NCBI RefSeq assembly: GCF_009914755.1
Contig: NC_060931.1
Length of the DNA: 64,000 nucleotides
From: the human T2T-CHM13v2.0 reference genome, Homo sapiens
Direction: 5' to 3' (one strand)
Shown: positions 14,436 to 15,639 of the stretch, in pieces
How the letters are laid out: each line of letters starts with the position of its first letter
Numbering within the stretch: position 1 is the stretch's first letter
Position numbers and translations under genes: made by a program
The notes under the pieces: generated by a model
What the model saw: only the letters and a program-made list of their open reading frames with translations
Databases searched by the model: none
Told to the model about the DNA's origin: nothing

Positions 14436-14827
14436 GTGGACAGTAAATAAGCATGAGAATATCAAAGCACACATTAAATTGCCCAGCATAGGGCAGACTA
14501 GAATACAAATATTCAGATATTCAAGTATTTTTCTTTTAACTTCTCATTGCCCATTCCATCTTAGAGTAAAATGTCAGTAAGGGAGGTGCTTAATGAAGCC
14601 AATGGTCATGTCTTCATTTTTGGATGAGTGCCTATTTTTAGATAGGAATAGGAGAGACACATCTTGAATTGAAAGTTCATCTCTTCCCAACACATTTATC
14701 TTTCTGTAAAAAATGGATAATTCAGGATTTCTTTTGTGATGAAAATGGTGAATAAATGATGTGCCATTCTTTGAACTATGAAATCTTCTGTGTTTTGTTT
14801 CTGGAAACCAGAGTAATGGCAACAACC

Positions 14828-14887
14828 ATATATATATATATATGTGTATATATATATATATATATAATATGCATATATATATATATA
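14828..14887. repeat. (TA)n microsatellite at the Alu tail
   Basis: Imperfect tatatata run. Confidence 0.9.
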
Positions 14888-15183
14888 TTTTTTTTTTTTG
14901 AGATGGAGTTTCGCTCTTGTTGCCCAGGCTGGAGTGCAGTGGCACTGTTTTGGCTCATTGCAACCTCCACCTCCTGGGTTCAAGTGATTCTCCTGCCTCA
15001 GACTCACAAGTAGCTGGGATTACAGGCACATGCCACCATGCCCCCATTAATTTTTGTATTTTTAGTAGAGATGGGGTTTCACCATATTGATTAGGCTGTT
15101 CTCCACCGCCTGACCTCAGGTAATCCACCCACCTTGGCCTCCCAAAGTGCTGGGATTACAGGTGTGAGCCACCGCACCTGGCC
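14888..15183 (-). mobile_element. AluS (Sq/Sp-like) in the spacer of inverted repeat 1
   Basis: ttttgagatggagtttcgctcttgttgcccagg...gagccaccgcacctggcc. Confidence 0.95.
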
Positions 15184-15639
15184 AGTAGAAATAATTAATA
15201 GCTAGAAAGCAGGCTGCCGAGCCTGGCAAGGAACCCAGGTGCAGCCAACATCCGAGGATGTTGGAGTTCAAAGAATGGCACATCATTTATTCACCATTTT
15301 CATCACAAAAGAAATCCTGAATTATCCATTTTTTGTAGAAAGATAAATGTGTTGGGAAGAGATGAACTTTCATTCAAGATGTGTCTCTATCTAAAAATAG
15401 GCATTCATCCAGAAATGAAGACATGACCATTGGCTTCATTAAGCACCTCCCTTACCGACATTTCACTTTAAAATGTAGTGGGCAATGAGAAGTTAAAGAA
15501 AAGAAAAATACTTGAATATCTGAATATTTGTATTCTAGTCTGCCCTATGCTGGGCAATTTAATACGTGCTTTGTTGTAAGCCCCATACCAGGCAGAGCAG
15601 AACTGTTCTGTCACCCTTCCCGAAGCCTCATGACCCACA

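What the first reader, a model, noticed from the sequence alone, without database searches (positions are those of the whole stretch)
14463..15573. ~310-bp near-perfect inverted repeat with an Alu in the loop
Seen: about 12 substitutions and 3 indels between the arms. The differences cluster (about 6 within ~14554-14577), between perfect tracts of ~65 bp (14473-14537) and ~70 bp (14708-14777). Inference: patchy identity suggests gene conversion between arms, or selection for pairing. A transcript would fold into ~300 bp of non-Alu dsRNA, a possible ADAR, Dicer or MDA5 substrate. The spacer could also be a recurrent inversion.
Basis: partly seen in the sequence, partly recalled or inferred. Interest (0 to 1): 0.75.

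Follow-up and report, generated by a model that had tools for sequence, protein, structure and literature searches.

The report
Ordinary local inverted duplication, human chr7
A 310-base stretch of intergenic human DNA is present twice, head to head around an older Alu; it is likely an ordinary copying accident of DNA replication or repair from roughly 10-20 million years ago, with no gene annotated across it.

Summary
The inverted repeat is real: arms 14463-14777 and 15265-15573, 12 substitutions and 3 indels, only two copies found in the genome. It is best read as a local inverted duplication, a known and common class (median 284 bp among 277 polymorphic human events). New here: a perfect 9-bp-stem hairpin (15245-15264) abuts the right arm's inner end exactly (chance about 0.003-0.008), and G+C-rich DNA flanks the A+T-rich right arm on both sides. 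So the right arm is likely the inserted copy, made by fold-back and template switch. The arms differ by 3.9%, while the Alu is 7.8% from the local Alu majority, so the duplication can postdate the Alu without conversion. Patchiness is marginal (p 0.055 corrected; perfect tracts unremarkable). There is no transposon hallmark, no Rfam match in the arms and no annotated transcript. No inversion is listed at the estimated hg38 position among 612 catalogued candidates. If transcribed, the stem (299 bp, 95.8% paired) would sit at the edge of the MDA5-type class, but 88% of that class is intergenic and mostly unedited. Three older duplications of the same build lie in the same window. Low interest.

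The parts
14463..14777 (+). Left arm, 315 bp, 34% G+C; likely the source copy
15265..15573 (-). Right arm, 309 bp, reverse complement of the left arm; likely the inserted copy
15245..15264 (.). Perfect hairpin, 9-bp stem and 2-base loop, ending on the base before the right arm; likely a fold-back scar of the junction
14890..15183 (-). Full-length Alu in the spacer, 19 of 244 non-CpG positions off the local Alu majority; no recognisable target-site duplication. AluS-type is recalled, not tested
14828..14889 (.). (TA)n microsatellite grown out of the Alu tail
14778..14827 (.). Unique A+T-rich spacer piece next to the left arm
15184..15244 (.). Unique spacer piece, G+C-rich towards the junction (about 61%), like the DNA after the right arm (54%)
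14554..14576 (.). Cluster of 6 of the 12 substitutions between the arms (5 transitions)
13951..14445 (+). About 490-base C/T tract ending about 20 bases before the left arm; a possible triplex-forming fork block (inferred)

Best explanation
This is a two-copy inverted repeat in intergenic DNA that likely arose once, as a local inverted duplication: a 310-base stretch was likely copied backwards into a site about 480 bases to its right by template-switching DNA synthesis, and has likely drifted neutrally since. Shown: two copies, sharp ends, a 9-bp hairpin flush with the right arm's inner end, G+C-rich flanks round the right arm, arms closer to each other than the Alu is to its family. Inferred steps: (1) a stalled fork or break near 15255; (2) the 3' end folded back and copied about 9 bases of itself; (3) synthesis resumed at 14777 on the same strand and ran back to 14463, skipping the Alu-bearing spacer (or a full palindrome formed and then lost one copy of the spacer; the two routes cannot be told apart here); (4) it stopped about 20 bases short of the long C/T tract and rejoined the DNA at 15574; (5) point mutations and three indels built up over roughly 10-20 million years. 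The spacer is likely in its original orientation in this assembly. No function is proposed.
For: Two copies only; no extra match for the right flank. Hairpin: 24 non-microsatellite stems of 9 bp or more in 264 kb; chance that one abuts one of four junctions 0.0025, or 0.008 for stems of 8 or more. G+C continuity gives 'right arm new, spacer as is' a relative weight of 0.84 against 0.05 for each of three other layouts; the same score ranks first the arm that has a target duplication in 3 of 3 neighbouring repeats, clearly in only 1. Age: arms 12 of 305 = 3.9% apart (95% interval 2.0-6.8%), about 2% per copy; Alu 19 of 244 = 7.8% from the majority of 46 local Alus. 11 of 12 substitutions are transitions, 2 fit CpG decay. 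Class is common: 277 polymorphic inverted duplications, median 284 bp (PMC12350158); 21 of 166 local rearrangements in one person (PMC5829575). Fold-back insertions at breaks are shown in yeast (PMC11724301). 6 low-copy local inverted pairs against 1 direct pair in 264 kb.
Against: No outgroup, so direction and age are inferred. The left arm has a weak flanking direct repeat (14419-14440 and 14784-14805; p 0.008 against shuffles, 0.006-0.026 against genomic DNA, 0.07-0.08 when anchored at the junctions), which would point to the left arm as the new copy. The hairpin threshold was chosen after seeing it. No microhomology is visible at the inner junction. The difference cluster is borderline (p 0.055). 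The published four-point model covers tens of bases and one switch-and-return; this event is larger and needs an extra step. The Alu figure includes subfamily-diagnostic differences, so it overstates the Alu's age somewhat; the year scale rests on recalled rates.
Confidence: 0.72

Rival explanations
1. The duplication is much older than 4% suggests, perhaps older than the Alu, and arm-to-arm gene conversion (with or without spacer flips) has kept the arms alike; the six-difference cluster is an unconverted remnant.
For: Six of 12 substitutions in 23 bases, best-window p 0.02-0.03. A weak, much more diverged direct repeat round the left arm could be an old target duplication. Recurrent inversion and conversion are documented for inverted repeats (PMC3961182 passages).
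Against: Corrected p 0.055, Sawyer-type p 0.11, longest run p 0.29, against a uniform null that real genomes exceed anyway. Identity is perfect right up to the inner end, with no decayed fringe. In the neighbouring repeat at 47306 the target duplication (about 80%) and the arms (78%) have aged alike, so such arms are not routinely homogenised. The paper ties recurrence to large repeats. No entry at the estimated position among 612 candidates.
Confidence: 0.14
2. Same kind of one-off accident but another geometry: the left arm is the new copy, or one switch-and-return both duplicated the arm and reversed the spacer (type 3-1-2-4).
For: Weak direct repeat round the left arm. Type 3-1-2-4 and its mirror make up 23% of short events in PMC5453318.
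Against: The hairpin would then be a coincidence (p about 0.003-0.008). G+C continuity gives each such layout 0.05. The left repeat lies mostly in the T-rich tail of a simple repeat and is not significant when anchored.
Confidence: 0.09
3. The repeat is kept by selection for a roughly 300-bp non-Alu double-stranded RNA that ADAR, Dicer or MDA5 acts on.
For: Predicted stem 299 pairs, 95.8% paired, longest helix 107 bp on +; 297 pairs on -, at the edge of the class of over 300 bp and over 96%.
Against: No annotated transcript crosses it (gene table given with the finding; nearest lncRNA starts at 22095, running away). No Rfam match in either arm. No CpG island in 12001-18000. An AATAAA lies near the inner end of the first arm on either strand (14751 +, 15286 -). 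Such long duplexes are selected against in transcripts (PMC7006430); 88% are intergenic and 74% unedited (PMC11838218). Only 6 of 12 substitutions keep pairing as G-U on +, about what either strand gets by chance.
Confidence: 0.03
4. The arms are the long terminal inverted repeats of a DNA transposon or MITE.
For: Overall shape only.
Against: No other copy in the genome. No TA, TTAA, 8- or 9-bp target duplication at the outer ends (read by eye). Longest ATG-started frame 85 codons. Human DNA transposons ceased long before a 4% divergence (recalled).
Confidence: 0.01
5. One arm is an assembly artefact.
For: None; reads could not be inspected.
Against: The arms differ at 15 places with a natural, transition-rich spectrum and have four distinct unique flanks; 1.1 kb is far below long-read length (established knowledge).
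Confidence: 0.01

Closest known systems
Inverted duplications among human structural variants (Schloissnig 2025, PMC12350158); 'non-tandem duplication, opposite strand' (Frith and Khan 2018, PMC5829575)
   Same: A few hundred bases copied nearby in reverse; size close to the 284-bp median; no long homology at the junctions.
   Different: Those are polymorphic and recent; this one is about 4% diverged and presumably fixed (not tested).
Four-point template switch, type 3-2-1-4 (Loytynoja and Goldman 2017, PMC5453318)
   Same: Inverted repeat with the spacer left in place, made by copying the other strand.
   Different: Their events span tens of bases and have one switch-and-return; here 310 bases plus a separate 9-base fold-back piece.
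Fold-back templated insertions at double-strand breaks (PMC11724301, yeast)
   Same: A short self-templated inverted piece at a junction, followed by joining without long homology.
   Different: Shown in yeast, mostly under 14 bases and up to about 150, primed by 10-base microhomology over a 41-base loop; here the loop is 2 bases and a second, long copied piece follows.
Inversions mediated by inverted repeats (Aguado 2014, PMC3961182; Moreira-Pinhal 2026, PMC13629690)
   Same: Arms over 90% alike flank a short unique segment; catalogued candidates include arms of about 300 bp.
   Different: No entry at the estimated hg38 position; longest perfect run only 70 bp; both orientations not shown.
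Long, highly paired predicted dsRNAs (Andrews and Bass 2025, PMC11838218; Barak 2020, PMC7006430)
   Same: About 300 bp, about 96% paired, intergenic.
   Different: Just under both cut-offs; made of two-copy DNA, not inverted LINEs or Alus; no transcript annotated.

Membership tests
Local inverted duplication | Two nearby copies in opposite orientation, not a dispersed repeat | tested here: met
   (2 of 2 candidates in the genome; tool counts are lower bounds; no Dfam here)
Local inverted duplication | Sharp junctions without long homology, often with templated scars | tested here: met
   no similarity past the ends; hairpin flush with the junction
Local inverted duplication | One copy absent in the ancestral state | not testable with these tools
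   no primate genomes held; indirect support from G+C continuity
Four-point template switch 3-2-1-4 | One switch and one return explain the whole insert | tested here: not met
   an extra 9-base inverted piece precedes the arm, unless the hairpin is older
DNA transposon / MITE | Target-site duplication at the outer ends | tested here: not met
   junction print-out, read by eye
DNA transposon / MITE | Dispersed copies elsewhere in the genome | tested here: not met
Concertedly evolving palindrome arms | Significantly patchy identity | tested here: inconclusive
   p 0.055 corrected, 0.11 Sawyer-type
Concertedly evolving palindrome arms | Arms closer within than between species | not testable with these tools
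   no orthologs
Recurrent inversion between inverted repeats | Flanking inverted repeats over 90% alike | tested here: met
   92% with gaps, 96% without
Recurrent inversion between inverted repeats | Both orientations found in people or apes | tested here: inconclusive
   no number beginning 4144-4147 is a chr7 position in the tables of PMC13629690; the hg38 position rests on a recalled offset; no haplotypes here
MDA5-type long dsRNA | Over 300 bp and over 96% paired | tested here: not met
   299 pairs, 95.8% against the cut-offs; borderline
MDA5-type long dsRNA | Transcribed through both arms, edited or exported | not testable with these tools
   no annotated transcript; Tables S2 and S5 of PMC11838218 were not held
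Known RNA family (Rfam 15) | Match at the family's gathering score | tested here: not met
   6 of 6 matches are below cut-off and lie in the Alu or the (TA)n run

The most novel reading that the evidence does not exclude
The repeat predates the Alu and has been kept at 96% by arm-to-arm conversion and spacer flips over only 310 bases, and is at times transcribed into a non-Alu 300-bp duplex that ADAR must edit: a minimal, unique-sequence case of concerted evolution and an uncatalogued recurrent inversion. With its three older neighbours (87%, 84%, 78%) it would form a dated series showing how short inverted duplications are born at hairpins and C/T tracts and when conversion stops.
Probability: 0.08. 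Interest if true: 0.55.

Novelty: new member of a known kind. Interest (0 to 1): 0.2.

Why it matters
As read here it matters little: it is one more fixed scar of a known mutational process, in a gene-poor stretch about 230 kb from the nearest TGF-beta-family coding exon (INHBA by recall). Its use is as a clean example: the junction still shows a fold-back hairpin, and three older events of the same build lie within 40 kb. It would matter more if orthologs showed conversion or flipping with arms this short, since recurrence is mainly shown for much larger repeats, or if stress or cancer transcription ran through it, since the stem is near the MDA5 threshold.

Tried and rejected
Transposon ends: rejected. 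Rfam: only Alu and (TA)n by-products. Promoter and terminator scan: bacterial consensus, not relevant. Residual similarity past the arm ends: none. A short template switch as cause of the six-difference cluster: not supported; 5 of 6 are transitions and the right copy folds only weakly (-3.7 kcal/mol). A 5-base repeat either side of the right arm, seen by eye: not significant (anchored p about 0.2). Alu target-site duplication: not recognisable. Enrichment of such repeats in this window: 4 in 64 kb against 2 in 200 kb of flanks and 0 in 40 kb from four other chromosomes; leaving out the selected one, 3 of 5 gives p about 0.1 (by hand), so not shown; the off-locus control is too small for a genome-wide rate. 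Catalogue searches: PMC13629690 tables, no entry (one search was uninformative because chromosomes are written without 'chr'); PMC12350158 supplements, no chr7 hit shown, file cut, 2 of 5 places seen for the one term that hit; PMC11451754, only the first two places per term seen, none a chr7 inversion, file cut; PMC12058530 supplement unreadable; PMC11838218 tables not held. Full-text search for INHBA, 7p14.1, inversion, inverted repeat gave 2 unrelated papers. Searches were for mechanism and catalogues; none of the listings names this locus.

Full report
Observation. Self-BLAST of the window gives one top non-self match: 14463-14777 against 15573-15265, 293 of 319 columns, 12 substitutions and 3 gaps; the repeat finder shows the same arms in pieces. 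The spacer is 487 bases: 50 unique bases, a (TA)n run, an antisense Alu (about 14890-15183) and 81 unique bases. A search of the whole own genome with the left arm returns the two arms and nothing else (2 of 2 candidates); the right arm with its flanks returns only itself and the left arm. The tool warns that repeat counts are lower bounds, and no Dfam library was at hand. Rfam finds 6 sub-threshold matches, all in the Alu or the (TA)n run.

Is the identity patchy? Against 20,000-50,000 random placements of 15 events in 308 columns, the best window gives p 0.02-0.03, but 0.055 after correction over 9 window sizes; the sum of squared runs gives 0.11, the 70-base run 0.29, the second run 0.04. 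A uniform null is lenient. Identity is perfect up to the inner end and no older similarity continues past either end (p 0.39 and 0.80), which is not the decayed fringe that long conversion would likely leave. 11 of 12 substitutions are transitions.

Junctions. A perfect hairpin with a 9-bp stem and 2-base loop spans 15245-15264 and ends on the base before the right arm. In 264 kb (window plus 200 kb of flanks) there are 24 such non-microsatellite stems of 9 bp or more and 77 of 8 or more; the chance that one abuts one of four junctions is 0.0025 or 0.008 (threshold chosen after the fact). The arm is 34% G+C; 60 bases either side of the left copy are 32% and 32%, either side of the right copy 62% and 53%. 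Scoring four possible ancestral layouts by G+C continuity gives 0.84 to 'right arm new, spacer as is' and 0.05 to each other layout. Against this, the left arm has a weak flanking direct repeat (p 0.008 against shuffles; 0.006-0.026 against genomic DNA), but it lies mostly in the T-rich tail of a simple repeat and drops to p 0.07-0.08 when anchored at the junctions. There is no transposon-type target duplication at the outer ends and no long reading frame (longest 85 codons in 6 frames of 14401-15700). A C/T tract of about 490 bases ends about 20 bases before the left arm.

Age. The arms differ at 12 of 305 aligned bases, 3.9% (2.0-6.8%), about 2% per copy. The Alu differs from the leave-one-out majority of 46 near-full-length Alus in the 264 kb at 19 of 244 non-CpG positions, 7.8% (4.8-11.9%; median of the 46 is 7.4%), a figure that includes subfamily differences. 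So the duplication can be about a quarter to a third of the Alu's age. With recalled dates (AluS 30-40 million years; human-orangutan about 3%) that is roughly 10-20 million years. No conversion is needed.

Context. The same screen finds 6 low-copy inverted pairs of 100 bases or more within 5 kb of each other, and 1 direct pair, in 264 kb; 4 of the 6 are in the window; spacers are 0.5-1.3 kb. 'Low-copy' was checked genome-wide only for this repeat and for 47306-47623 (2 of 2); one of the two outside the window may be a pair of dispersed repeats. In the three neighbours one arm is bracketed by a direct duplication anchored at its junctions: 48598-48910 (about 30 bases, 0 of 1500 draws reach it), 11781-11899 (p 0.009), 25392-25542 (p 0.02-0.03); their partner arms show none. 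In the first, the duplication (about 80%) and the arms (78%) have aged alike. A second 9-bp hairpin (26395-26418) spans the end of one arm; 2 of 24 junctions lie within 5 bases of such a stem, p 0.002. 2 of 6 pairs touch one of 5 long purine/pyrimidine tracts, p 0.017 (noticed after the fact). 40 kb from four other chromosomes hold none, too little for a genome-wide rate.

Mechanism. Shown: two copies, sharp ends, junction hairpin, flank composition, relative divergence. Inferred: a break or stalled fork near 15255, fold-back copying of about 9 bases, a jump to 14777 on the same strand, 315 bases copied backwards, rejoining at 15574. Both copied pieces come from one strand in co-linear order, so a single fold-back that made an 800-base palindrome followed by loss of one spacer copy gives the same result; no microhomology marks the inner junction. 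Later neutral drift. Confidence 0.72.

RNA. A transcript through both arms would fold into the stem: 299 pairs, 6 of them G-U, 95.8% paired, longest helix 107 bp on +; 297 pairs on -. PMC11838218 (passages and section 10) counts 2,018 predicted duplexes over 300 bp and over 96% paired, 88% intergenic and 74% unedited; this one sits just under both cut-offs. PMC7006430 (passages) finds such duplexes depleted from transcripts. The annotation supplied shows no transcript here; there is no CpG island nearby and each strand meets an AATAAA inside the first arm. An unexpressed near-perfect stem in intergenic DNA is the expected state, not a sign of function.

Comparison with print. PMC12350158 (passages and section 18): inverted duplications are the commonest inversion class outside mobile elements, 277 events, median 284 bp, mostly with microhomology only. 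PMC5829575 (passages): 21 of 166 supported local rearrangements are non-tandem opposite-strand duplications. PMC5453318 (passages): types 3-2-1-4 and 3-1-2-4. PMC11724301 (passages): fold-back insertions in yeast. PMC3961182 (passages): recurrence in 11 of 16 inversions, tied to large repeats. PMC11794170 (abstract only) catalogues repeat pairs of 200 bp or more and 80% or more, a class into which this one falls. PMC13629690 (abstract, methods section 13, one of 43 parts of the tables, table searches) merges five call sets and older predictions into 612 candidates with arms over 90% alike; none lies at hg38 chr7:41.44-41.47 Mb. That position comes from the TGF-beta-family exon at 41,848,054 and a recalled offset of about 158.4 kb, so the negative is conditional. 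Supplements that were cut, unreadable or not held may still list the locus as an inversion or an edited duplex.

Verdict. Real, but ordinary: a new member of a known kind. It works like a template-switch or fold-back inverted duplication; conversion and inversion remain open at low odds; a functional RNA is unlikely. Interest 0.2.

Noticed in passing
window 47306-47623 and 48598-48910: Second two-copy inverted pair, 320 bp at 78%, 2 of 2 copies in the genome. The right arm is bracketed by an approximately 30-base direct duplication and keeps 7 CpG against 2 in the left arm. A C/T tract lies in the spacer. It sits in an intron of the predicted lncRNA LOC107986787.
   Followed up: partly
window 25392-25542 and 26263-26412: Inverted pair, 151 bp at 87%, also with an Alu in the spacer; the left arm looks inserted (A+T-rich flanks with a weak duplication), and a 9-bp hairpin at 26395-26418 spans the end of the right arm. 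Part of the arm looks MIR-like (recalled). Intronic in the predicted lncRNA, so a likelier RNA duplex than the finding itself.
   Followed up: partly
window 10363-10481 and 11781-11899: Inverted pair, 119 bp at 84%; right arm bracketed by a decayed duplication of about 35 bases (p 0.009); surroundings look L1-like (recalled).
   Followed up: partly
window 18973-19156 and 19698-19882: Local direct duplication, 185 bp at 83%, with a second weaker piece 18619-18683 / 19647-19711; the only low-copy direct pair of 100 bases or more within 5 kb in 264 kb.
   Followed up: no
window 20901-21178 and 24331-24590: 69% inverted match, probably two independent L1 3' ends (recalled); the second overlaps the annotated enhancer 24191-24691.
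   Followed up: no
window 14471-14472 and 14706-14707: Both adjacent double substitutions between the arms are AC against GT, each the reverse complement of the other; chance or tiny inversions.
   Followed up: no
window 14778-14827 and 15184-15200: The Alu has no recognisable target-site duplication; the (TA)n run may have swallowed it, or a deletion removed it.
   Followed up: partly
G000:C7:41679601-41679651 (L014): Two perfect hairpins (11- and 10-bp stems) back to back, the pattern of serial short template switches.
   Followed up: no
G000:C7:41741410-41742514 (L020): Another low-copy inverted pair, 194 bp at 73%, spacer 735 bases.
   Followed up: no
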